Below, in pieces: positions 52,662 to 64,000 of a stretch of DNA of 64,000 nucleotides (position 1 is the stretch's first letter; each line of letters opens with the position of its first letter). The translations under genes and the position numbers were made by a program. The stretch comes from an uncultured Gammaproteobacteria bacterium (GTDB taxonomy: Bacteria; Pseudomonadota; Gammaproteobacteria; Xanthomonadales; SZUA-36), in the NCBI GenBank assembly GCA_963766195.1, contig CAVXYY010000018.1, positions 81,753 to 145,752 on the forward strand, given 5' to 3'. The notes under the pieces were generated by a model. That model saw nothing but the letters and a program-made list of their open reading frames with translations, was not told the origin of the DNA and did no database searches.

Positions 52662-53552
52662 ATGCGCAAATTTGCCATCAAGCTTTTTCTGGTCCTGCTG
52701 ATCCCGGCGCTGGTTGCCTGCGGCTCATCCGGACAGTCCGGTTACCATGGCTACCTGTATTTCGCCAAGGGGGCATACCTGATGCGGTTCAGCCTTCGGG
52801 ATAGTGATTTATCCGTCGCTGCGGTCCTGGGGGAAAAAACCATTCGCGATGTCAGTTCTTTTGGCGAAAACAAGCTACTGATCGCAGAATCGGAGTCGGT
52901 TAACCGGCAGGAAGTTCATCGCATTTCCTGGGTGGATCTGAAGACTGGCCAGTTGTCGGCGTTGTATTCCGGGGTTATCGCACGATACCTGGCCAAGTCC
53001 GGTTTGCTGGTTTACGACGATGGTTTGAAATTATACGAAGTGGCGATCGCCGGCGACTCGAGCAGCGAAATCATCTTTTCCCACAGGATGAACCAGATTT
53101 CCTCGGTGATGGTGGTTTCAGACAACATCGTGTTGTTCGAAACGATCGAGGCCGGGCAGCCGGTCATTCGATCGTACGACGTGGTCACTGGCGCATTACA
53201 GACGCTGGATTCGTTATCCACGCTATGCCGGCTGGAGCACGCGGTCTGGATCGATGACTTCGAACAACTGGCCTGCAAGCAGCAGACGAAACAGGCCAGT
53301 GACGCGCATTATCTTCTGGTGAACCTGGATGGTGAACAGGGTGGCAGCCTGCCGCTGCCTGAGGGCAAACGGTTCGACGCACTGGCATACGTCAGTGGCC
53401 AGGGCGCCCTGATTCTGACCGAGAGCTGGCGCGGCCTGTTCGGCGGCGAAGAGCGGTCATCGGTCTGGGTTTATGACATCCACAGCGGAGAAAGCCACCG
53501 CCTGGCTAAAAATCAGAACCTCGGATCATCGGTGGTATACACCGACTACTGA
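52662..53552 (+). CDS. Lipoprotein of unknown function (beta-propeller-like)
   Basis: Lipobox LVAC followed by repeated beta-strand-rich segments. No family recognised. Confidence 0.6.
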   Translation: MRKFAIKLFLVLLIPALVACGSSGQSGYHGYLYFAKGAYLMRFSLRDSDLSVAAVLGEKTIRDVSSFGENKLLIAESESVNRQEVHRISWVDLKTGQLSALYSGVIARYLAKSGLLVYDDGLKLYEVAIAGDSSSEIIFSHRMNQISSVMVVSDNIVLFETIEAGQPVIRSYDVVTGALQTLDSLSTLCRLEHAVWIDDFEQLACKQQTKQASDAHYLLVNLDGEQGGSLPLPEGKRFDALAYVSGQGALILTESWRGLFGGEERSSVWVYDIHSGESHRLAKNQNLGSSVVYTDY

Positions 53553-55879
53553 CCAAAACCTTCCGGCAGCTTCATCCCGAGGTTCTCGAGCAAAAACGCC
53601 CAATTGTCGGAGTAATTTGCAATCAGTTTGTCGGTCGGCACCCCAGCGCCATGGCCGGCCCGCGTTTCGATCCTGATCAATACGGGGGCGTCGCCAGCCT
53701 GGGCTTCCTGCAACGCCGCCGTGTATTTAAAACTGTGTCCGGGAACCACGCGGTCATCCGTATCGGCAGTAGTCACCATGATGGCCGGATAGACGGTTCC
53801 TTCCCTGATATTGTGATAGGGAGAATATTTCAGCAGGGCTGCAAATTCTTCCGGGTTGTCGGATGAACCGTAATCGTCGGTCCAGAAACGCCCGGCCGTG
53901 AAATTATGGAAGCGCAGCATGTCCATCACGCCGACCGCGGGAATGGCCGCACCAAACAGGTCCGGCCGCTGGTTGACGACGGCACCTACCAGGAGTCCGC
54001 CGTTGCTGCCGCCAAAGATCGCCAGTTTTTCAGGACGGGTGTAGCCCTCGTTGACCAGGTATTCGGCCGCGGCGATAAAATCGTCGAATACATTTTGCTT
54101 GTTGAGCCTGGTGCCGGCCTGGTGCCATTCCTCGCCGTATTCGCCGCCACCGCGCAGGTTGGCAACGGCATAAATGCCACCCATGTCCATCCAGGTCACG
54201 CGGGTTGTCGAGTAGGAAGGCGTCATCGAGATGTTGAAACCGCCGTAACCGTAAAGCAGGGTCGGGGTGTTGCCGTCGGGCACAACGTCCTTGCGGTGCG
54301 AGATGAACATCGGCACGCGGGTTCCGTCTTTGGAGGTATAAAAAACCTGCTCCACGGTGTAGTCATCCGGGTTCATTGCAACGTCCGGCGCCCTGAAGAC
54401 CTCGACCGCACCGGTCGCGACATTCAGCCTGCTGATCGTGTTCGGGTAAATGAAGCTGGAGAATGCGAAGAACGTTTCTTCATCATCAAATTTGCCGCCA
54501 AAGCCCACGGCGGTTCCGATGCACGGCAAATCGACCGTACCCGTTTGATTTCCTTCCAGGTCCATTACCTTGACCACCGTTTTCGCGTCCTGCATGTAGC
54601 TAGCGATGATCTTTCCGCCCACCAGGTTCACATCATCCAGTACGTCGTCGGTCTGGGCGATGACTTCACGCCAGTGTTCGCGGGCGGGCTTGTTCGAGTT
54701 GATCACGATAAGGCGGTTTCGCGGAGCGCCTTCATTGGTGCGAAAATACAGGTCATCGCCGATGTTTCCGACCAGGCTGTAGTCATAGTCGAACCCTTCG
54801 ATAATCATGACCGGTTCGGCCGCAGGATCCGTGAGATCCTGGTGCACGATCGAGTAACGGCTATCCGTGCCCACGGAAATCGTTATCACCAGGTGTTTGC
54901 CGTCATCTGTGACCGTGCCGCCCATCAGCCAATCCGGTTGATCCGGCCTGGCGTATACGACCCGGTCCTGGTCCTGTGACGTACCCAGCTCATGGAAATA
55001 CAACACCATGTTCTTGTTCAGTGACTGGAATTTTTCTTCTTCTTTGGTGGCCGGAAACCGGCTGTAATAGAATCCGGAACTGTCTCCGGCCCATGAGAGA
55101 TTGGTGAATTTCAGCCAGTCCAGCTTGTCAGCCAGCTCTTCGCCGCTTTCGACATTCATCACCTTACCCACGCGCCAGTCCGAACCCCCGTCCTGCACCA
55201 GGTAAGCAACGTGCTTGCCGTCCGGGCTGGGGAAGTAAGACGCCAGCGCAACCGTGCCGTCTTCCGACCAGGTATTGGGATCGATCAACAGTTCCGGCTC
55301 GGCATCCAGGCCGGTCAGGGTGTAAATCACATCCTGATTCTGCAACCCGTTGTTATGGCTGTAAAAGTACCGGCCGTTTTCCTTGACGGGGAGGGAAAAA
55401 CGCTCGTAGTTCCAGAGTTCCTTCATCCGTGAGTGAATCGCGGGCCGTTCCTCGATGGTATCGAGATAGGCGAAAGTCACCTTGTTTTCGGCATCGACCC
55501 AACTGGCGACCGCCTCGCTTTCGCGCACGTCGTCTTCAAGCCAGCGGAAGGGATCGGCCACCTCGGTGCCATGATAGGTGTCGACGTGATCGACCTTGTC
55601 TGTTACCGGATAAATCAGCGCGACCGGTATATCTGCTACTTCTGTGACTTCAATGCTTTCAGAAACCGGTTCAGAGCACGCTGCCAGAAAAAGTGCCGCA
55701 AGCAGCGCCAGGAGCAGGCAGTTCCTTCTCGGCTTTCCCGGGCTCAGCCAGGTGGAGGTTGAAATAGGGGCACTAGCTGCTTCATGGATATCGGTGCATT
55801 GGGAGTGGGCCAAAGCCGTCAGGCTTGTCGTTCCCAGACGCGGACTCAGTGCAATCGCTTTCAGTGAAAGAGTTTTCAT
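53546..55879 (-). CDS. Prolyl oligopeptidase (S9A serine peptidase)
   Basis: N-terminal hallmarks YHGTEVADPFRWLED, a propeller region and the catalytic GGSNGGLLVGA. A lipobox (FLAAC) appears only at about residue 68 of the tracked ORF, so the true start is uncertain. Confidence 0.9.
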   Translation of the reverse strand: MKTLSLKAIALSPRLGTTSLTALAHSQCTDIHEAASAPISTSTWLSPGKPRRNCLLLALLAALFLAACSEPVSESIEVTEVADIPVALIYPVTDKVDHVDTYHGTEVADPFRWLEDDVRESEAVASWVDAENKVTFAYLDTIEERPAIHSRMKELWNYERFSLPVKENGRYFYSHNNGLQNQDVIYTLTGLDAEPELLIDPNTWSEDGTVALASYFPSPDGKHVAYLVQDGGSDWRVGKVMNVESGEELADKLDWLKFTNLSWAGDSSGFYYSRFPATKEEEKFQSLNKNMVLYFHELGTSQDQDRVVYARPDQPDWLMGGTVTDDGKHLVITISVGTDSRYSIVHQDLTDPAAEPVMIIEGFDYDYSLVGNIGDDLYFRTNEGAPRNRLIVINSNKPAREHWREVIAQTDDVLDDVNLVGGKIIASYMQDAKTVVKVMDLEGNQTGTVDLPCIGTAVGFGGKFDDEETFFAFSSFIYPNTISRLNVATGAVEVFRAPDVAMNPDDYTVEQVFYTSKDGTRVPMFISHRKDVVPDGNTPTLLYGYGGFNISMTPSYSTTRVTWMDMGGIYAVANLRGGGEYGEEWHQAGTRLNKQNVFDDFIAAAEYLVNEGYTRPEKLAIFGGSNGGLLVGAVVNQRPDLFGAAIPAVGVMDMLRFHNFTAGRFWTDDYGSSDNPEEFAALLKYSPYHNIREGTVYPAIMVTTADTDDRVVPGHSFKYTAALQEAQAGDAPVLIRIETRAGHGAGVPTDKLIANYSDNWAFLLENLGMKLPEGFGQ

Positions 55880-55950
55880 TGGGTGTTCCTGCCTTTTTCA
55901 GTAACTACACTAATCGGAAAAATATGCGCCAACAGAAAGCTTTAACCGGA
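55880..55950. other. Compositional and taxonomic breakpoint (GC-rich proteobacterial sequence to AT-rich Bacteroidota-like sequence)
   Basis: Base composition, third-codon-position preference and ribosome-binding-site usage all change here. The boundary can only be placed to within about 50-100 nt by eye. Confidence 0.6.
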
Positions 55951-56238
55951 AATTGAAGGCCGCATTGATGGCCCTCATCCGTTTGGATTTGCACCGATCC
56001 ATCATGAAACGGCGGCTTACATGATATTGCTGTGGAATCTTGGAGTCGTTGACGTAGAAAGGAGAAAGACGCCAACTGGCTCTATGCAGTAAGAGAATTT
56101 AGTCAGGAAGACAAAGTAAACTGGATCCTTTCACTGCCCGATGCCAGCGAACATTTACTTAAGGAAGGCAGTTTTATTTTTCCGGTAACGCAATGTGTAA
56201 CGATGATGGTAAAAGTAGGCGAAACAGAAAGTGGCTGA
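55924..56238 (+). pseudogene. Possible frame-shifted coding remnant
   Basis: Three consecutive short open frames read MRQQKALTGN*, then PEIEGRIDGPHPFGFAPIHHETAAYMILLWNLGVVDVERRK..., then ...KEKDANWLYAVREFSQEDKVNWILSLPDASEHLLKEGSFIFPVTQCVTMMVKVGETESG*. They look protein-like, but I cannot name a family. Confidence 0.2.
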
Positions 56239-56340
56239 GCCTCTTTTTGAAAAGAAAGAACTGGAAATAGCATTTGAAAAATGTATTCCTTTTGATTTTG
56301 TAAGAAGAAAGGCAAAGGATTTTATTTTATTAAAAGTAGA

Positions 56341-56364
56341 CTGTACAGTGTACGCTGTACAGTG
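56341..56364. repeat. Direct repeat CTGTACAGTG-tacg-CTGTACAGTG
   Basis: Two exact 10-bp copies lie 4 bp apart, each containing the palindrome TGTACA, within an AT-rich non-coding stretch. Confidence 0.5.
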
Positions 56365-56598
56365 AAAAAATAGTATTGCCCTTCGTTTACTACTTACATA
56401 TTATTGTTGTGGCATGTCGGTAGCTATGATTCCATTTGTATAGCAGTACGTTTACTGTGCTGTTATTTTTTTATCTTACTGATTCCCATTCAATTGCCTC
56501 AATGCCTGATGAAAGCCGGTGAATCATTTAAAATAAATACAACTTGAGCTTATGGGATCAACTGGAAGGTTTAGGTCAGCCATCGTTAGTTGGGATCT

Positions 56599-56631
56599 GA
56601 AAAACCCTGGCTCATATTGCATGAACCAGGG
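56599..56631 (-). terminator. Rho-independent terminator after the 56642-56929 gene
   Basis: The minus strand reads CCCTGGTTCA-tgcaata-TGAGCCAGGG (9/10 paired) followed by TTTTT. Confidence 0.6.
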
Positions 56632-56641
56632 CAGCATTTAT

Positions 56642-56929
56642 CTAGTCGACCAACTCTATCTCAATAGCCGAATGAACACGGATATTTTTATTCAACATTT
56701 TTGCCTCTTCAAAAACGGATTCAAGATATTTACCCATTTCCTTTAGTTCAACTACCCGTTGCCTGGAAAACAGATCCGGTTTTCCAAAACGTTCTTCGGA
56801 GCTCCAGTTACGCAGGTTATGAAAATTAATTTTACTGTGGATCATCTGCATAAGCATTTCTCTTATATCTCTTATTTCCACAGTGTCAAATGTACCTTCA
56901 ATAAGTTTTAATGTTTCAGTCTTTGTCAT
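56642..56929 (-). CDS. Small hypothetical protein, paralogue of 57141-57383
   Basis: 95 aa. Shares L-x-LIEG-x-F...E..DI...M....KI.FH and a C-terminal N-I-x-x-x-A-I-x motif with the 80-aa protein upstream. Confidence 0.5.
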   Translation of the reverse strand: MTKTETLKLIEGTFDTVEIRDIREMLMQMIHSKINFHNLRNWSSEERFGKPDLFSRQRVVELKEMGKYLESVFEEAKMLNKNIRVHSAIEIELVD

Positions 56930-57113
56930 AGCTATTTTGTTTTTTGTTATTATTGATTCCTGGAGTCCAGCACATACCGATTAAGGAGAGCAGGGCCAGG
57001 GAAGTAAAAAATTTATTTCCCAGTGCATCTGTTGTTGTATATGAATAAATAAATCCCATTACAAAAAGGATGGCACAGACCAATAGCAGGAAATTTTGTT
57101 TGAATCGTTGCAT
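56916..57113 (-). CDS. Small two-TM membrane protein (hypothetical)
   Basis: 65 aa with two hydrophobic segments (FLLLVCAILFVMGFIY; FFTSLALLSLIGMCW). It overlaps the downstream gene by 14 nt. Confidence 0.4.
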   Translation of the reverse strand: MQRFKQNFLLLVCAILFVMGFIYSYTTTDALGNKFFTSLALLSLIGMCWTPGINNNKKQNSYDKD

Positions 57114-57140
57114 GTTTTATTTTTTAATATTTAGGGAATA

Positions 57141-57383
57141 TCAATTCATCTGTATAGCGGCGTTGATATTTACTCCGGCCGTCTGGCTCTTCATGTGCTG
57201 CCTGAGTTGATCCAGTTCATGCTGCAGACTTTTTATCTTTTTTTCCCTCATTTTAATATCTTCCTGGTTATGGTTATTATTAATTTTCTCTTCGTGAAAC
57301 TTAATCTTTACCGCTACCATTTTTGAAATGATATCAATACTTTCAGCTGGTGTAAATTTTCCTTCAATTAATGTCAGGTTCAT
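57141..57383 (-). CDS. Small hypothetical protein, paralogue of 56642-56929
   Basis: 80 aa with an N-terminal LTLIEGKFTPAESIDIISKMVAVKIKFH and a central coiled-coil-like region. It lies 11 nt downstream of icd. Confidence 0.5.
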   Translation of the reverse strand: MNLTLIEGKFTPAESIDIISKMVAVKIKFHEEKINNNHNQEDIKMREKKIKSLQHELDQLRQHMKSQTAGVNINAAIQMN

Positions 57384-57394
57384 GGTTTATCAGT

Positions 57395-58831
57395 TTATTG
57401 GCCTTGCCCCAGTGAGAAAGCCGGTTTAGAATCAAATGCATAGAGGTTTTCTGTCTTTATGCTATCAATATCATTTTTGATTGCATTATCCAGTAACGCC
57501 ACAATGTGCTCTTTGGTAACAGGATGGCTATTCGCCTGCTTAAAGCGGCAACGCCAGTGATCGGTACAGAATGTTTCTTCAAAGCCATCGGGCCATACTT
57601 TGATACCCCGGTTAGTGATCATCGATAGTTGAATATCATTATTATCCAGTTTTTTTATCTTCTCCGCAATTTCATTGGGGTTATTACCAGTCCAGTGTAC
57701 AAACATATCAACACCTACCAATTCTTTTTTGGCAGCTTTCTTACGCTGATAGGCCGGTAACTTGATGGTACTATCTTTTTTATAGACAACTGGTTTAAGT
57801 GTTGCTGGTTGCTCATCCAGGTTGGCAATCACTGCCTGTGCAAACTCCTGAGTGCCTACGCATTTTTTACTGGTACCCTCTTTATAAATATCATTGGTAT
57901 GTATACCGTCTTCTATCGTCTTTAACCATGCGTTCTGTACTTTTTCTGCAACATCAGATTGACCGATATGGCTCAGCATCATAATAGCGCCTTGTAATAA
58001 GCCGGATGGGTTGGCTGAATTCTGTCCTGCTCTTTTAGGCGCCGATCCATGGATGGCTTCAAACATGGCGCAGGTTTCACCGATATTGGCGGAACCGGCA
58101 AGCCCTACTGATCCGGTGATCTGTGCAGCTACATCACTTAACACATCGCCATAGAGATTAGGCATTACGATAACATCAAAAGCTTCCGGTGTGTCGGCCA
58201 TTTTGGCTGCACCTATATCAATGATCCAGTGTTCGTTTTCTATTTCGGGGTATTCTACTGCAATTTCATCAAAGACCTGGTGAAACAAACCGTCTGTCTG
58301 TTTCATAATATTATCCTTGGTGAAGCATGTTACTTTTTTACGACCATGCTGGCGGGCATATTCAAACGCATAGCGGACGATCTTTTCGCATCCGGGCCGG
58401 CTGATGAGTTTAAGACATTGTACCACTTCATCTGTTTGCTGGTGTTCGATACCTGCATACAGATCTTCTTCATTCTCCCGAACAATTACAATATCCATTT
58501 CCGGATGTTTTGTTTTGACAAAAGGATGGAGGCTGATACAAGGACGGATATTGGCATACAAGCCCAGGAATTTACGGGTTGTAACATTCAGGCTTTTATA
58601 ACCACCGCCTTGTGGTGTGGTAATCGGTGCTTTTAAAAATACTTTGTTTCTGCGGATAACATCCCAGCTTTCTTTCGCTATACCGGAGGTATTACCAGCG
58701 AGGTAAACTTTCTCTCCTACTTCTATTTCTTCCACTTCAATTCTTGCTCCGGCAGCCATAATAATCTGCAGGGTGGCGTCCATTATTTCAGGACCGATAC
58801 CGTCGCCTTTGGCAACTGTGATTTTTTTCAT
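57395..58831 (-). CDS. icd: Isocitrate dehydrogenase, long form with a ~130-aa C-terminal extension
   Basis: KITVAKGDGIGPEI, SLNVTTRKFLGLYANIRP, ENEEDLYAG, MPNLYGDVLSD and HGSAP. Length 478 aa. No SD is present and codons are AT-rich. Confidence 0.85.
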   Translation of the reverse strand: MKKITVAKGDGIGPEIMDATLQIIMAAGARIEVEEIEVGEKVYLAGNTSGIAKESWDVIRRNKVFLKAPITTPQGGGYKSLNVTTRKFLGLYANIRPCISLHPFVKTKHPEMDIVIVRENEEDLYAGIEHQQTDEVVQCLKLISRPGCEKIVRYAFEYARQHGRKKVTCFTKDNIMKQTDGLFHQVFDEIAVEYPEIENEHWIIDIGAAKMADTPEAFDVIVMPNLYGDVLSDVAAQITGSVGLAGSANIGETCAMFEAIHGSAPKRAGQNSANPSGLLQGAIMMLSHIGQSDVAEKVQNAWLKTIEDGIHTNDIYKEGTSKKCVGTQEFAQAVIANLDEQPATLKPVVYKKDSTIKLPAYQRKKAAKKELVGVDMFVHWTGNNPNEIAEKIKKLDNNDIQLSMITNRGIKVWPDGFEETFCTDHWRCRFKQANSHPVTKEHIVALLDNAIKNDIDSIKTENLYAFDSKPAFSLGQGQ

Positions 58832-58890: not shown

Positions 58891-58898
58891 TAACTTTG
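58891..58898 (+). promoter_or_regulatory. Bacteroidota-type -7 promoter motif TAnnTTTG
   Basis: TAACTTTG lies about 25 nt upstream of the LysR-gene ATG at 58923, and no Shine-Dalgarno sequence precedes the start. Confidence 0.4.
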
Positions 58899-58922: not shown

Positions 58923-59846
58923 ATGGATTATACCCTACACCAGTTACGCATCTTTCTGAAAATAGCCGAAACAGAAAGTATTACGAAGGCTGCGGAGGAA
59001 TTACATCTTACCCAGCCGGCTGTTTCCATTCAGCTAAAAAACTTACAAGATCAGTTTGATATCCCCTTAACAGAAGTAGTAAGTAAAAAACTTTACCTGA
59101 CCGATTTCGGTAAAGAGATTGCACAGTCAGCAGAGTTGGTGCTTAATGAAGTTTATGCGATAAACTATAAAACACAGCTTTACCGGCAACAGTTATCTGG
59201 CCGATTAAAACTATCTGTTGTTTCTACAGGTAAATATGTAATCCCCTATTTCCTTTCCGGATTCTTAAAACAACATCCTACAGTAGAATTGCAGATGGAT
59301 GTAACCAATAAAGCCCGGGTGGTAGAAAGTCTTGAAAAAAATGAAGTTGATTTTTCACTTGTTTCTGTACTGCCCCAAAAATTAAGGATACAAAAAATTG
59401 AATTGATGGAGAATAAAATCTTCCTCATAGCAAATGCAGACAGTAAAATACCGGATAAAAAAATTACTTTGAGAATGCTTGAATCCCTGCCACTGATCTT
59501 CCGTGAACAGGGCTCGGCTACCCGCAATGCCATGGAAAATTATTTACATAAAAATCAGTTAAGCGTTGAAAAAAAAATCGAGTTGTCTTCCAATGAAGCT
59601 GTTAAACAGGCTTTACTGGCAGGATTAGGTTATTCAATTATGCCGTTGATTGGCATAAAAAACGAACTGGGCAATAAACAATTACAAATAGTTCCTTTAA
59701 AAGGGTTGCCCATTAAAACCGCATGGAACATAATATCACTTCTTGACAAAAAAATGTCGCCGGTAGCAAATGCTTTTATGAAGTATTTAGCTAAAGAAAA
59801 AGATCAGATTATCAGCCGTCAATTTAACTGGTTGAAAAATTATTGA
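58923..59846 (+). CDS. LysR-family transcriptional regulator
   Basis: HTH LRIFLKIAETESITKAAEELHLTQPAVSIQLKNLQDQFDIPL plus a LysR substrate-binding domain. It is divergent from icd. Confidence 0.88.
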   Translation: MDYTLHQLRIFLKIAETESITKAAEELHLTQPAVSIQLKNLQDQFDIPLTEVVSKKLYLTDFGKEIAQSAELVLNEVYAINYKTQLYRQQLSGRLKLSVVSTGKYVIPYFLSGFLKQHPTVELQMDVTNKARVVESLEKNEVDFSLVSVLPQKLRIQKIELMENKIFLIANADSKIPDKKITLRMLESLPLIFREQGSATRNAMENYLHKNQLSVEKKIELSSNEAVKQALLAGLGYSIMPLIGIKNELGNKQLQIVPLKGLPIKTAWNIISLLDKKMSPVANAFMKYLAKEKDQIISRQFNWLKNY

Positions 59847-59891: not shown

Positions 59892-60626
59892 TTATAACTC
59901 ATGTTGAGATGAGAAATTTTCCCGATCGATCTCTTCATTGATCAGCCAGTATTCCAGTTCTTCTTTCTGCACCGATAACCAGGGTATCCATTGCTGTTGG
60001 TTCCGGTAATACACTTCGGTAGCATCTTTTCCTGCAAATAATTTGTAATCAAATTTAGCATCTGCTGTACTGAGATAACCGGTATAATAATAATCCAGTT
60101 GCTGCTGTAGTGCATAGCCGATCTTTAACAACACCAGGTATTTACCCAATTGCTGTTTTGCATAATCGGGATGATAATAATTCAATATTCCCGCCATCGT
60201 TTTCTCTCCCAAATCAAAAAAACCAGCGGCAATCAGTTTACCTTCTTCCCGTATAGTAATACAATGCGTATCATAAATGCTGTTCGTTGTTTCGCCCAGC
60301 AAACTATCCTGCAAGGTTTCGCTCAGTTCAAAGTCCATGGCTACTTTATATAATTGATAAAGCTCTTCCAATTCTTCCGTAATATTTCCCTCTACAAAAT
60401 CAACTGTATATTTTTTATTGGCGGTTAATAGTTGCTGTTGTTTTTTAGTAGCTTTGTATTTTGATAACGCCAGACGCAGCCAGAATACAGGCAGGAGGCG
60501 GTTATCTTTCAGAATTACATCTGTGGTAAAGATCATCTGCTGCATGCGGTACCAGCCATTGGCGAGGTAGTCGTCCAGTTTTTTACCCGCTAATTGTTCG
60601 GGATAATGTATGTCATAATATACCAT
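59892..60626 (-). CDS. Arginyl-tRNA-protein-transferase-like (ATE/Bpt C-terminal, GNAT-like) protein
   Basis: LDDYLANGWYRMQQ near the N-terminus and ...GILNYYHPDYAKQQLGKYLVLLKIGYALQQQLDYYYTGY resemble the ATE_N and ATE_C patterns. The assignment is tentative. Confidence 0.55.
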   Translation of the reverse strand: MVYYDIHYPEQLAGKKLDDYLANGWYRMQQMIFTTDVILKDNRLLPVFWLRLALSKYKATKKQQQLLTANKKYTVDFVEGNITEELEELYQLYKVAMDFELSETLQDSLLGETTNSIYDTHCITIREEGKLIAAGFFDLGEKTMAGILNYYHPDYAKQQLGKYLVLLKIGYALQQQLDYYYTGYLSTADAKFDYKLFAGKDATEVYYRNQQQWIPWLSVQKEELEYWLINEEIDRENFSSQHEL

Positions 60627-60655
60627 TGAGCGGCAAGATAAAGAAGACAGTTAGT

Positions 60656-61711
60656 TTATCCAGCTAAAAAAGTAATAGTAAATTCTGCAAAATCTCCTTC
60701 CTCGGATTCTGCTTTTAGTTCGCCCTGGTGTGCTTTAATAATATCATGGCTTAAAGACAGACCAAGCCCGGTTCCTTCCCCGGTAGGTTTGGTGGTAAAA
60801 AACGGCTGATAAATTTTATCCAGGTATTTTGGTGCAATACCTAATCCATTATCCCTGATTTTTACTTTTATAGCAGCGCCTTCTTTATATGTACTCACCG
60901 TTATTACTGGCTCATACCCTGGTTTATTTAATTTCGTCTTTTCACCTACAGAATAAAAGGCATTATTAAACAGATTCATAAGTACATGCCCCACATCCTG
61001 CGGCACTATGCTTATTTTATCAAGAAGCGGGTCTAAAGCGGTGGTAAGGGCCACATTAAATAATTTATGCTTTGTCCGGAAGCTATGATAGCTCAACTTT
61101 AAATATTCTTCGGCTAAAAAATTAATATCTGTAAGCTCTTTAATACCACTGCTGCTCCGGGCATGCTGCAGCATATTTTTTACAATGTTTTCTGCCCGTT
61201 TACCATGCCCGATTATTTTATGCAGGTTTTGAATAACATCATCTAACAACAAATTAACTTCCTCATTGTCTTTATCTGTCAATGTTTTGTTTGTCAATAT
61301 GTCTTTCATTTCAACTAACAACTCCGTATTTATTTCAGAAAAATTATTTACAAAATTTAACGGGTTTTGTATTTCATGTGCAATACCAGAAACCACTTCT
61401 CCGAGAGAAGCCATCTTTTCTTTTTGCACCAGTTGTAACTGGCTCGATTTAAGATCTGTTAACGCCAGCTGAAGACTTTCTTTTTGTTGCAGCAATTCTA
61501 CCGTTCTTTCCTTAACCCTGTCTTCGAGTAAACTATTTTGCACTTTCAGTTCCTGCTGCTGTTGCTCATGAATGGCCTGCAAATCTTTATGGTATTGTAA
61601 CTTCTTACGCTGGTTGGTGATGAACGCAATTAAAAAACTGCTGAACAAAACTACCATGGCAGAAATGCCAATAATTACCCTAGACTGTATACTGATGTCG
61701 AGCAGGTGCAT
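60656..61711 (-). CDS. Sensor histidine kinase (HisKA + HATPase_c)
   Basis: One TM segment and a coiled coil. H-box SGIAHEIQNPLNF, N-box LMNLFNNAFYS, and G-boxes RDNGLGI and GTGLGLSLS. Confidence 0.88.
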   Translation of the reverse strand: MHLLDISIQSRVIIGISAMVVLFSSFLIAFITNQRKKLQYHKDLQAIHEQQQQELKVQNSLLEDRVKERTVELLQQKESLQLALTDLKSSQLQLVQKEKMASLGEVVSGIAHEIQNPLNFVNNFSEINTELLVEMKDILTNKTLTDKDNEEVNLLLDDVIQNLHKIIGHGKRAENIVKNMLQHARSSSGIKELTDINFLAEEYLKLSYHSFRTKHKLFNVALTTALDPLLDKISIVPQDVGHVLMNLFNNAFYSVGEKTKLNKPGYEPVITVSTYKEGAAIKVKIRDNGLGIAPKYLDKIYQPFFTTKPTGEGTGLGLSLSHDIIKAHQGELKAESEEGDFAEFTITFLAG

Positions 61712-62360
61712 AAAAGGCTTTGGTTATAAAGATGCAAAATAAGATATAAGCAATATTATGAACGTCCCATATATTCAATGCAAGTTTTATATCGTGGTGT
61801 AACATAGGAACGTAAAATAAAAACACAAAAAAATTAATTACTACATAAATACTGAGCCCGGTAACCAACCAGAAATCGGCTCCGCTTGTAATATCATCTG
61901 CTTCATCTCTCAGCTTAGCAAGGTAATACTGCATACAAAAAATCAGCAACAGGTAAGATTCTGTAGCCAGTAAATTACCACTTAAATGATCGGGATTACC
62001 AAAATTTTCCACAAAACTGAAGTTGATGATTATTATCACCAGAGAAAAAAAAGGCAATATTTTCTTCAACAGGGTAAAAGAAGATTGCTTTAGCATTATA
62101 AAAAAGTAACAGAAACAGATAAACCGGATGATGGAGTGAGCATTGTATAAGGGTGTATTACTCTCCATCCATCCTGGCAAATATTCATAATATTCGCTGA
62201 TGATATCGCAAGTTAAATTGATGAATAAGGCAATAACCAGGTATATAATTATGGGTTTTAAAAACCTGGGTTGACGGGGTCTGAACAGTAAAATGCTCAG
62301 CGGTATCAGGGTTGCCCAAACCTCAGACCAATTCAGCAGTAATTTTAAAAAGCCACCCAT
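61680..62360 (-). CDS. Polytopic (6-7 TM) membrane protein, possibly the detached sensor module of the downstream kinase
   Basis: 226 aa and almost entirely hydrophobic helices. Its 3' end overlaps the kinase start by 32 nt in another frame. Confidence 0.55.
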   Translation of the reverse strand: MGGFLKLLLNWSEVWATLIPLSILLFRPRQPRFLKPIIIYLVIALFINLTCDIISEYYEYLPGWMESNTPLYNAHSIIRFICFCYFFIMLKQSSFTLLKKILPFFSLVIIIINFSFVENFGNPDHLSGNLLATESYLLLIFCMQYYLAKLRDEADDITSGADFWLVTGLSIYVVINFFVFLFYVPMLHHDIKLALNIWDVHNIAYILFCIFITKAFYAPARHQYTV

Positions 62361-62496
62361 TATTAAATAATTATTTACAAACCCTGTATGTGCCTATGTG
62401 GGAAAAAATTAACTGAATACTTATCAATAAATATAGTTTTGTCGGGTAGAAAATTACAGCTTATCTTTTATTGTTTAACCATTAAAAATAATAAGT

Positions 62497-63123
62497 ATGA
62501 GAAAGCTACCTTTTTTATCTGCGTCCGGATCCTGGCTGATACTAATGATCCTATTTTTTGCTTCCTGTAATGGGAATAAATCTTCAGAGTCTAACACTGA
62601 TAATGTCGATCCCACTATTATAACTCCAGAACCGGGGGATAGTAAAGCAGGTATTTTGACAGGAAGCCTCGATACATTGTGGATTGATGCTCCCTCTTTT
62701 TTAGCATTGGGAAATCCACCAATGCCAAGAAATTGGACCATTTTCAGGTTTTATATCGATAATTCAAATGCTTTAACCCTTGCAGGTTGGTCAGCTAATA
62801 ATGGCAATGGCCAGTTCCACCCTTCTGGCGGCACACCACCATCACCTAACCTTATATTATTAAAAGGCAATCCAAGTACAATTAACTATGCAGCTGGCGA
62901 TTACTTTGGTAATTTAATATTACGTCCGGCCCAGCTTAATAATATAAAATCGCTAATTAATTCTTCAAGTTCTAATTCTGTTTTGTTTGCACCATATATC
63001 GATAACCACCAGATTACTTATAATATTTTTCTTTCGGCCTCAAAAAATAAAAATGATGTTTCATCTAATTTAGTACCTACCGAGGAAGGTTTAAATCCAT
63101 CACCACCAAGGAATTCAAATTAG
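62497..63123 (+). CDS. Lipoprotein of unknown function
   Basis: Signal peptide with lipobox (LILMILFFASC), 208 aa, no recognisable family. Confidence 0.6.
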   Translation: MRKLPFLSASGSWLILMILFFASCNGNKSSESNTDNVDPTIITPEPGDSKAGILTGSLDTLWIDAPSFLALGNPPMPRNWTIFRFYIDNSNALTLAGWSANNGNGQFHPSGGTPPSPNLILLKGNPSTINYAAGDYFGNLILRPAQLNNIKSLINSSSSNSVLFAPYIDNHQITYNIFLSASKNKNDVSSNLVPTEEGLNPSPPRNSN

Positions 63124-63144
63124 TATATAATTGAAAATAAGAAC

Positions 63145-63199
63145 GGAGGTAAAATCGGTACTATTCAATTGGTAACTTTATTTTACCTCCTTTGTTTTA
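63145..63199 (+). terminator. Rho-independent terminator
   Basis: GGAGGTAAAAT (63145-63155) and ATTTTACCTCC (63180-63190) form a perfect 11-bp inverted repeat followed by TTTGTTTT. The loop is long (24 nt). Confidence 0.55.
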
Positions 63200-63229
63200 T
63201 ACCTATCCTGCCTATAACATCAAGCAACT

Positions 63230-63835
63230 ATGTCATCATCACCCTACCGCTATTTTATTCTCAATAAACCTTACAATATGGTATCTCAATTTGTAAGTAC
63301 CCATGCGGTAAACTTGCTGGGTAATATTGGTTTCGAATTCCCGGAAGGGATACATGCTATTGGCCGATTAGATAATCACTCCGAAGGATTATTGATTTTA
63401 ACGACGAATAAAAATATTACCCGATTATTATTTGAAGCAAAGGAGCCACATAAAAGAACGTATCTGGTACAGGTCAATCACACAGTAACAGATGAACGAT
63501 TACAATTGATAAGAGATGGAGTAAGATTCCGGATAAAGGGTAGTGGCTATTATACTTCTGCTCCCTGTAAAGCTGAAATAGTTTTAGACCCCAAAATTTC
63601 ATTTGCTGCTCCGTATGAAATGACAGAAAATATTTCCTACACCTGGCTGCGCATTTGTCTTACTGAAGGAAAATATCATCAGGTACGTAAAATGATGAGA
63701 GCTGTTCACCATCGATGTAAACGATTAATACGGGTAAGTATTGAAGACCTGACACTGGGCGACTTACAACCAGGTAGTATTAAAGAAATTGCAGAGAAAG
63801 ATTTTTTTTCACTGCTCAAAATAAAAGATAGTTAA
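63230..63835 (+). CDS. Pseudouridine synthase (RsuA/RluE-type, no S4 domain)
   Basis: YFILNKPYNMVSQF, the catalytic GRLDNHSEGLLILTTN, and KTYLVQV...GKYHQVRKMM. Confidence 0.85.
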   Translation: MSSSPYRYFILNKPYNMVSQFVSTHAVNLLGNIGFEFPEGIHAIGRLDNHSEGLLILTTNKNITRLLFEAKEPHKRTYLVQVNHTVTDERLQLIRDGVRFRIKGSGYYTSAPCKAEIVLDPKISFAAPYEMTENISYTWLRICLTEGKYHQVRKMMRAVHHRCKRLIRVSIEDLTLGDLQPGSIKEIAEKDFFSLLKIKDS

Positions 63836-64000
63836 GCGTCGTCAATTCTATTCTTTGAATATTCTTTTATCAGATTGGTACAATTACTTTCCAGTATATA
63901 AATTTCTGCTACTTCAAACTTGCATATACCAACGATTCAAATTTGGCTTTTACATCGTTATGACTGTTTGGTGTTTGCTGTGTCATAAAAAGACAAACCA

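What the first reader, a model, noticed from the sequence alone, without database searches (positions are those of the whole stretch)
55880..56640. Abrupt switch from GC-rich proteobacterial to AT-rich Bacteroidota-like sequence with no mobile-element hallmarks
**Left of ~55.9 kb**
- Every gene is GC-rich with G/C-ending codons.
- GGAG-type ribosome-binding sites are clear.

**Right of ~55.9 kb**
- Every gene is AT-rich with A/T-ending codons.
- No start codon checked (57383, 58831, 58923, 60626, 61711, 62497, 63230) is preceded by a Shine-Dalgarno sequence.
- A TAnnTTTG motif (58891) of the Bacteroidota primary-sigma type is present.
- The proteins look like Bacteroidota versions: long-form IDH, an AHEIQNPLNF kinase, FASC lipoproteins.

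**At the boundary**
- Housekeeping genes lie on both sides.
- There is no integrase, transposase, tRNA or flanking direct repeat.
- The prolyl-oligopeptidase gene loses its upstream region right at the break.

**Conclusion.** The most economical explanation is an assembly or binning chimera, or two contigs concatenated without a spacer. A genuine inter-phylum transfer would be remarkable but is less likely.
Basis: partly seen in the sequence, partly recalled or inferred. Interest (0 to 1): 0.6.

Follow-up and report, generated by a model that had tools for sequence, protein, structure and literature searches.

The report
Chimeric contig end, not gene transfer
The last 9.2 kb of this contig is ordinary chromosomal DNA of an unrelated Bacteroidota bacterium that was almost certainly joined to a gammaproteobacterial genome during assembly, so it is an artefact to trim and not a cross-phylum gene transfer.

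Summary
The composition switch is confirmed: GC falls from 0.58 to 0.37 and GC3 from 0.69 to 0.36, and Shine-Dalgarno sites disappear. The break lies at window 56057|56058 (C18:137809|137810), not 55.9 kb. The AT-rich block is the terminal 9,193 bp of contig C18, so there is only one junction.

- **Left side:** Gammaproteobacteria-like. Its uL2 scores best against Pseudomonas, E. coli and Acinetobacter ribosome structures.
- **Right side:** Bacteroidota. The 80 best IDH matches are all Bacteroidota, and LysR-IDH-small-gene synteny is conserved.
- **Junction:** it cuts a Bacteroidota 130-aa gene near codon 50.
- **Independent assemblies:** two short-read contigs carrying the identical IDH read through this point into the complete gene and an AI-2E transporter. 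A third assembly's contig of the same strain ends on the junction nucleotide.
- **Consensus quality:** three window-only indels lie within 260 nt of the junction.
- **Relatives:** none of 30 has the block, and same-genus genomes have GC-rich DNA there.
- **Host genome:** it has its own Icd.
- **Second case:** contig C10 has another foreign terminus that truncates a native gene.

No integrase, transposase, tRNA or flanking repeat is present. Verdict: assembly chimera, most likely from a chimeric long read at a contig end.

The parts
53546..55879 (-). Prolyl oligopeptidase (S9A) ORF of the GC-rich host, 777 aa as an open frame. The part conserved with relatives starts near residue 51-54 (about window 55717). 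The N-terminal ~50 codons are a remnant of an upstream redoxin gene fused in frame.
   Evidence: Pfam Peptidase_S9_N and Peptidase_S9. Orthologues at 90% (G008) and 84% (G007) match from residues 51-54 onward. Remnant structure.
55719..55931 (-). Native host-lineage DNA: a remnant of a 229-aa thioredoxin-fold (redoxin) gene with two internal deletions, plus its RBS and promoter. It is homologous to the region upstream of the oligopeptidase in same-genus genome G008.
   Evidence: blastn 74-88% identity to L095 (G008:C14), reaching 52 nt upstream of the ATG at 55879.
55932..56057 (.). 126 bp with no match to either source. The wider 55880-56057 stretch has GC 0.46. Probably host intergenic DNA.
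   Evidence: No match in G000, relatives or Bacteroidota loci. A GC of 0.46 is rare in both the host body (2% of 178-bp windows at or below it) and the tail (2% at or above it).
56057..56058 (.). The junction (C18:137809|137810) between gammaproteobacterial and Bacteroidota DNA.
   Evidence: Seven independent related contigs (L098-L104) all start aligning at 56058. Same-strain contig L002 ends at 56058.
56058..56303 (+). 3' remnant (from about residue 50 to the C-terminus) of a conserved Bacteroidota 130-aa hypothetical protein gene. Its 5' third and its divergent AI-2E transporter neighbour are missing. It carries three window-specific indels (56236, about 56297, about 56309-56314).
   Evidence: Family P0001-P0006. 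tblastn covers residues 50-109 and then residues 102-127 in a shifted frame. Multiple alignment. Native context.
56642..57383 (-). Three small Bacteroidota genes (95, 65 and 80 aa) downstream of IDH, conserved in that position in many Bacteroidota.
   Evidence: The 80-aa gene has homologues in 47 of 80 loci and the 95-aa gene in 38 of 80, in top loci immediately downstream of IDH. Exact copies occur on independent contigs.
57395..58831 (-). NADP isocitrate dehydrogenase, 478-aa type with the bacterial C-terminal domain. Bacteroidota version.
   Evidence: NCBIfam NF006673, 795 bits. The 80 best genome hits are all Bacteroidota at 76-83% identity. An identical protein is on two Logan contigs.
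58923..59846 (+). LysR-family regulator, divergent from IDH, with a TAACTTTG motif at 58891.
   Evidence: Pfam HTH_1 and LysR_substrate. Homologues in 65 of 80 Bacteroidota loci, up to 67% identity, adjacent and divergent to IDH in the top loci. Motif.
59892..63835 (.). Remaining tail genes in the window: an arginyltransferase-like protein (59892-60626, -), a histidine kinase (60656-61711, -), a 226-aa unknown (61680-62360, -), a FASC lipoprotein (62497-63123, +) and a pseudouridine synthase (63230-63835, +). The block continues to C18:147002 with a split beta-lactamase-family gene.
   Evidence: Collinear with L002.

Best explanation
The junction at window 56057|56058 is an assembly artefact. 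Contig C18 of a gammaproteobacterial MAG ends in 9,193 bp of chromosomal DNA from a co-occurring Bacteroidota organism.

The most likely route is inferred, not shown. A chimeric long read, made of a host fragment plus a Bacteroidota fragment, was used to extend the contig end, where no competing coverage could overrule it. Later polishing with genuine Bacteroidota reads cleaned most of the tail but not the last ~260 nt next to the junction.

No biological process (integration, transposition or recombination) is needed. The contig should be cut at C18:137809.
For: **Shown**
1. There is only one junction. The AT-rich block runs to the contig end, and the next 497 nt known from L002 match no other G000 contig.
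2. The two sides are different phyla. Host uL2 scores 463-468 bits against entries I know as Pseudomonas aeruginosa ribosomes, 444 against E. coli, 431 against Acinetobacter, and 312 against Flavobacterium johnsoniae 7jil (the organisms of the PDB codes are from my own knowledge). All 80 best matches to the tail IDH are Bacteroidota.
3. The tail is native Bacteroidota core context. LysR has homologues in 65 of 80 loci, the 80-aa gene in 47 and the 95-aa gene in 38, adjacent to IDH in the top loci.
4. Independent assemblies of the same strain read through the breakpoint. Logan contigs from ERR15459714 and ERR12037369 carry the identical IDH, 80-aa and 95-aa proteins with identical gene spacing. 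They continue into a complete 130-aa gene, and one continues into an AI-2E transporter, where the window has the oligopeptidase. The same divergent gene pair occurs in related lineages.
5. The junction cuts that 130-aa gene near codon 50, and seven related contigs begin aligning at exactly 56058.
6. ENA contig L002 (ERZ25039600) is essentially identical over 56358-57557 (no differences before 57258) and ends on the junction nucleotide, as expected if a physical fragment or read end lies there.
7. Three indels in 56236-56315 are unique to the window. They are absent from L002 and three relatives, and they account for the 7-nt spacing difference from the Logan contigs. There are only two substitutions nearby.
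8. None of 30 relatives has the tail DNA. G008 and G007 have GC-rich genes upstream of the oligopeptidase.
9. The host has its own Icd-type IDH (TIGR00183, 633 bits).
10. The same assembly has another foreign terminus. C10:1-2860 has no credible ORFs, has a GC skew of -0.48, and abuts a native SBF transporter gene truncated at profile position 64 of 191. Genes at contig ends are also frameshifted.
11. There are no mobile-element genes, tRNA or repeats.

**Background**
- Chimeric reads make up 1.7-8% of ONT data and include interspecies chimeras (PMC10025935).
- Interspecies chimeric contigs are common in near-complete MAGs and are missed by marker-based contamination scores (bioRxiv 10.64898/2026.10.15.759294).
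Against: - Absence of spanning reads and a coverage step are therefore not shown.
- The sequencing platform and assembler of the source MAG are unknown to me. Long-read origin is inferred from contiguity (18 contigs for 3.9 Mb) and from indel-type errors at contig ends.
- The host's true continuation beyond the break was not found in any other G000 contig. The upstream genes of G008 and G007 have no homologues in G000.
- The 126 bp at 55932-56057 are unassigned.
- No independent assembly of the host side exists in the collections.
Confidence: 0.9

Rival explanations
1. A genuine, very recent inter-phylum transfer. At least 9.2 kb of Bacteroidota chromosomal DNA entered the gammaproteobacterial chromosome by illegitimate recombination, and the contig happens to break inside the insert.
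For: The sequence is contiguous with no N spacer. The junction lies in non-essential DNA of the host, next to an already decayed gene. The 130-aa gene remnant carries frameshifts, as a pseudogene might.
Against: - There is only one junction, and no other G000 contig holds Bacteroidota-like DNA that could supply the return junction.
- The tail is essentially identical to a free-living strain over 1.2 kb, including intergenic DNA. Its IDH and small proteins are 100% identical to those on independent contigs that have the native flank.
- The cargo is core housekeeping DNA with Bacteroidota promoters and no SD sites, and it duplicates the host's Icd.
- No mobile-element machinery is present.
- All 30 relatives lack the block.
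- The damage near the junction is indel-only and clustered, unlike neutral decay.
- A second junk terminus in the same assembly shows the artefact does occur here.
Confidence: 0.04
2. An artefact of another kind: a graph misjoin through a short shared sequence, a scaffolding or gap-closing error, or two contigs concatenated without a spacer during binning or submission.
For: The outcome would be the same as for a chimeric read, namely a single sharp junction with a foreign terminal block. An independent assembly's contig of the same strain ends exactly at the junction, which would also fit a join made at a contig end.
Against: - The Bacteroidota piece is only 9.2 kb, while the matching contig in the other assembly is 35.7 kb and extends beyond the C18 end. 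So it is not a whole contig pasted on.
- No shared repeat or microhomology of 12 nt or more exists at the junction.
- C10's foreign terminus (2.9 kb) also has the size of a read fragment.
Confidence: 0.25

Closest known systems
Interspecies chimeric contigs in metagenome-assembled genomes (bioRxiv 10.64898/2026.10.15.759294)
   Same: Foreign sequence is joined inside a contig of a near-complete MAG. Marker-based quality scores do not see it (G000: 91.7% complete, 1.75% contamination), and it carries genes discordant with the MAG's lineage.
   Different: That study concerns short-read MEGAHIT and metaSPAdes assemblies. Here the contiguity and indel-type errors suggest a long-read assembly, and the join sits at a contig terminus.
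Chimeric nanopore reads in metagenomic libraries (Meta-NanoSim, PMC10025935)
   Same: Interspecies chimeric reads arise from library preparation or sequencing artefacts at 1.7-8% of reads. One such read would give exactly a host fragment followed by a fragment of another community member, with a breakpoint at a random position such as mid-gene.
   Different: No read of this sample was seen. The platform is inferred, not known.
Horizontally acquired genomic islands and integrative elements
   Same: Abrupt GC and codon-usage change, and foreign taxonomic affinity of the genes.
   Different: No integrase, transposase, tRNA target or direct repeats. Only one boundary. The cargo is core chromosomal synteny of the donor phylum. 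There is no amelioration at all. The block is absent from all relatives.

Membership tests
Interspecies chimeric contig (assembly artefact) | Sharp switch of composition and taxonomic affinity at one point | tested here: met
   GC 0.58 to 0.37 and GC3 0.69 to 0.36. Host uL2 is Gammaproteobacteria-like. Tail IDH is Bacteroidota in 80 of 80 best hits.
Interspecies chimeric contig (assembly artefact) | Independent assemblies of the donor organism continue differently across the breakpoint | tested here: met
   Two Logan contigs with identical IDH, 80-aa and 95-aa proteins continue into the full 130-aa gene and an AI-2E transporter. Related contigs show the same pair.
Interspecies chimeric contig (assembly artefact) | The recipient lineage has different, native sequence at the site | tested here: met
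   G008 and G007 (same genus) have GC-rich genes (0.55-0.57) upstream of the oligopeptidase. None of 30 relatives holds the tail DNA.
Interspecies chimeric contig (assembly artefact) | No or minimal read support across the junction, and a coverage step | not testable with these tools
Interspecies chimeric contig (assembly artefact) | The same artefact is seen elsewhere in the assembly | tested here: met
   C10:1-2860 is a foreign, ORF-free terminus abutting a truncated SBF transporter gene.
Genomic island or integrative element (true HGT) | Integrase, transposase or relaxase gene, a tRNA or other att target, and flanking direct repeats | tested here: not met
   No tRNA. No such Pfam or NCBIfam domains on either side. 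No repeats of 12 nt or more.
Genomic island or integrative element (true HGT) | Two boundaries with recipient DNA | tested here: not met
   The block runs to the contig end. No other contig carries its continuation. The low-GC heads of C10 and C14 are unrelated.
Genomic island or integrative element (true HGT) | The junction is reproducible in independent data | tested here: inconclusive
   The junction word is absent from JGI metagenome contigs, but a tail-only control word is absent too, so the strain is not represented there.

The most novel reading that the evidence does not exclude
The junction is real. An estuarine gammaproteobacterium very recently took up at least 9 kb of unameliorated Bacteroidota core chromosome (IDH, LysR, kinase) by illegitimate recombination with no mobile element, and it was caught before any sequence divergence.
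Probability: 0.04. Interest if true: 0.7.

Novelty: not a real feature. Interest (0 to 1): 0.07.

Why it matters
There is no biological significance, but there is practical significance.

This genome belongs to a set with one representative genome per species. About 9.2 kb of Bacteroidota DNA on C18 and about 2.9 kb of unrelated DNA on C10 sit inside contigs, where marker-based contamination scores (1.75% here) cannot detect them.

If left in place, these pieces would produce false inter-phylum HGT calls, a false second IDH, and wrong pangenome and metabolic inferences for this lineage. Contig C18 should be cut at 137809 and C10 near 2860.

The case also shows that, without reads, exact-protein look-ups in independent assemblies can locate a chimeric breakpoint to the nucleotide.

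Tried and rejected
- **Read mapping.** The look-up of sequencing runs and read laying were both closed.
- **Independent assemblies of the host side.** Exact-protein look-ups for the oligopeptidase and two neighbouring genes found nothing.
- **Junction word in JGI metagenome contigs.** The 37-nt junction word was absent. A tail-only control word was absent too, so this test says nothing.
- **DNA of the two Logan read-through contigs.** Not retrievable because the sample files are too large. Only their gene maps could be used.
- **Host's true continuation elsewhere in G000.** I looked for it using the genes upstream of the oligopeptidase in G008 and G007. They have no homologues in G000, so that neighbourhood is variable or missing from the bin.
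- **16S rRNA for naming the host.** G000 has none, so uL2 against PDB ribosomes was used instead.
- **C14's low-GC head as another chimera or the missing second junction.** Rejected. It is a restriction-modification island (cytosine methylase, EcoRII-C, HNH, Mrr) with milder composition and no similarity to the Bacteroidota contig.
- **The 55880-56057 stretch as a repeat or mobile-element end.** Rejected. It is unique in G000, and its left part is homologous to G008.
- **Peptides from 55940-56057 as the N-terminus of the 130-aa protein.** Rejected. The family's N-terminal ~49 residues have no counterpart in the window or anywhere in G000.

Full report

Yes. In 1-kb windows GC is 0.54-0.64 from 1 to 56 kb and 0.35-0.43 from 56 to 64 kb. 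At 200-bp resolution it falls from 0.56 to 0.33 between 55.8 and 56.3 kb.
- GC3 averages 0.69 in 41 left ORFs and 0.36 in 7 right ORFs.
- SD-like motifs precede 17 of 41 left starts and none of 10 right starts.
- TAnnTTTG is eight times denser on the right. One copy lies 32 nt upstream of the LysR start.
- The kinase H-box AHEIQNPLN and a FASC lipobox are present.
- The window has no tRNA.
- There are no integrase or transposase domains.
- No repeat of 12 nt or more links the junction to the tail.

**2.

The window is C18:81753-145752 of an 18-contig, 3.9-Mb assembly (91.7% complete, 1.75% contamination). C18 is 147,002 bp long and the low-GC block runs to its end. The foreign block is therefore a terminal 9,193-bp piece with a single junction.

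**3. Who is on each side?**

*Host.* G000's uL2 scores 463-468 bits against 7unr and 6spb/6spg, 444 against E. coli-type entries and 431 against 6v39. The next group scores 368 or less, and 7jil scores 312. From my own knowledge these codes are the ribosomes of Pseudomonas aeruginosa, E. coli, Acinetobacter baumannii and Flavobacterium johnsoniae. The host is Gammaproteobacteria-like. G000 has no 16S gene.

*Tail.* It encodes the following:
- a 478-aa NADP-IDH (NF006673, 795 bits)
- a LysR regulator
- an arginyltransferase-like protein
- a histidine kinase
- small unknown proteins
- a lipoprotein
- a pseudouridine synthase
- a split beta-lactamase-family gene

The 80 best IDH matches among species-representative genomes are all Bacteroidota at 76-83% identity: Chitinophagales, Saprospiraceae/Lewinellaceae, Cytophagales and Flavobacteriales. 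LysR has homologues in 65 of those 80 loci, the 80-aa gene in 47 and the 95-aa gene in 38, lying next to IDH in the top loci. This is core chromosomal context of the donor phylum, not a cassette.

**4. Exact breakpoint**

A search with the stitched junction peptides found a family of 128-130-aa hypothetical proteins. They align to the window only from residue 50 onward, at 56056-56235 and then in a shifted frame to 56290. Their N-terminal ~49 residues match nothing in the window or in G000.

The DNA of seven independent contigs that encode family members (L098-L104) starts aligning at exactly 56058. The break is 56057|56058 (C18:137809|137810), inside a gene.

On the left, window 55719-55931 is 74-88% identical to the region upstream of the oligopeptidase in same-genus genome G008. 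It is the remnant of a 229-aa redoxin gene (GGWCPYC motif) that has two internal deletions and is fused in frame to the oligopeptidase, together with its RBS and about 50 nt of promoter. Host-lineage DNA therefore reaches at least 55931. The 126 bp at 55932-56057 are unassigned; the 55880-56057 stretch as a whole has GC 0.46.

**5. Independent assemblies**

*Logan contigs.* The window's IDH, 80-aa and 95-aa proteins occur letter for letter on Logan contigs from ERR15459714 (6.9 kb) and ERR12037369 (4.6 kb). Gene lengths and gaps there are identical to the window's: 45, 91, 11 and 27 nt, and a 14-nt overlap. Past the 95-aa gene both contigs carry a complete 130-aa gene, and the longer one then carries a 339-aa AI-2E transporter where the window has the oligopeptidase. 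The same divergent pair occurs in related lineages.

*ENA contig.* L002 (ERZ25039600 contig_94783, 35.7 kb) matches the tail from 63858 down to 56058. It is essentially identical to the window over 56358-57557, with no differences before 57258. It extends beyond the C18 end on the far side. It ends on the junction nucleotide. A contig of the same strain ending exactly there suggests a physical fragment or read end at that base, possibly from the same read set. That last point is inference.

**6. Local sequence quality**

A five-way alignment shows three indels within 56236-56315 that only the window has: +T, +T and +6-8 nt. L002 and three relatives all lack them.

Together they explain why the 130-aa gene's stop lies 338 nt from the 95-aa gene in the window but 331 nt in both Logan contigs. 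Only two substitutions against L002 occur in the same 300 nt.

Indel-only damage confined to the ~260 nt next to the junction fits thin long-read consensus better than evolutionary decay. Other contig ends also carry frameshifted genes: Mrr and the methylase on C14's head, and the beta-lactamase-family gene at C18's end.

**7. The recipient lineage**

None of 30 relatives, including 8 of the same genus, has the tail DNA. G008 is syntenic with C18 for more than 25 kb downstream of the oligopeptidase. Upstream it has GC-rich (0.57) unrelated genes, and so does G007.

G000 has its own Icd-type IDH on C4 (TIGR00183, 633 bits against a cut-off of 567). The Bacteroidota IDH is therefore redundant.

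**8. A second case in the same assembly**

C10:1-2860 has GC 0.42-0.47, a GC skew of -0.48, no credible ORFs and no Rfam family, and it is absent from relatives. At the composition step a native SBF-family transporter gene begins at Pfam profile position 64 of 191, so it is truncated.

C14's low-GC head is an ordinary restriction-modification island.

**9. Conclusion**

The most likely route is a chimeric long read extending a contig end.
- Interspecies chimeric reads make up a few percent of ONT metagenomic data (PMC10025935).
- Interspecies chimeric contigs are frequent in near-complete MAGs and are invisible to marker-based scores (bioRxiv 10.64898/2026.10.15.759294).

I put it at about 4%.

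Noticed in passing
G000 contig C10:1-2860 (L111): A second foreign terminus. About 2.9 kb has no credible ORFs, GC 0.42-0.47 and an extreme GC skew (-0.48). It looks non-bacterial and abuts a native SBF (bile acid:sodium symporter family) gene truncated at Pfam profile position 64 of 191. It is absent from 20 relatives and has no Rfam match.
   Followed up: partly
window 55717-55879: The N-terminal ~50 codons of the 777-aa oligopeptidase ORF are not oligopeptidase. They are the signal-peptide end and one internal piece of a decayed 229-aa thioredoxin-fold redoxin gene, which is intact in same-genus genome G008. Two internal deletions (about 135 and 417 nt) fuse it in frame to the oligopeptidase lipoprotein signal (LLALLAALFLAAC).
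   Followed up: partly
window 56341-56363: Two direct copies of the palindrome CTGTACAG, 6 nt apart (ACTGTACAGTGTACGCTGTACAGT), lie in the Bacteroidota intergenic region between the 130-aa and 95-aa genes. They are identical in L002 and partly conserved in L098. This may be an operator.
   Followed up: no
window 56642-57383 and Bacteroidota loci L003-L082: Small genes with no Pfam or NCBIfam family (80, 65 and 95 aa) follow IDH. Homologues of the 80-aa gene occur in 47 of 80 loci and of the 95-aa gene in 38 of 80, across several orders. This is a widespread uncharacterised IDH-linked gene set.
   Followed up: partly
L002 versus window 57558-58757 and near 63880: The ENA contig of the same strain is only about 75% identical across the IDH body, with substitutions only, and is near-identical on both sides of it. 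Its IDH is broken into four ORFs, which suggests a cross-species consensus mix in that assembly. It also has 1.3 kb, including a YtxH-family gene, that the window lacks.
   Followed up: partly
G000 contig C14:1-4500 (L110): A low-GC restriction-modification and defence island (C5 cytosine methylase fragment, EcoRII-C, HNH, Mrr) sits at a contig start. Mrr and the methylase are split by frameshifts. It is absent from relatives.
   Followed up: partly
C18:145661-146937 (L112:2662-3938), beyond the window: A beta-lactamase-family (serine hydrolase) gene of the Bacteroidota tail is split into two ORFs (Pfam profile 2-89 and 123-320) within the last 1.3 kb of the contig. This fits poor consensus at the contig end.
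   Followed up: no
G024:C38:60531-61036 (L106): One same-order relative of the host has a 67% DNA match to the tail's 478-aa-type IDH. That IDH type may therefore exist natively in some members of the host's order.
   Followed up: no
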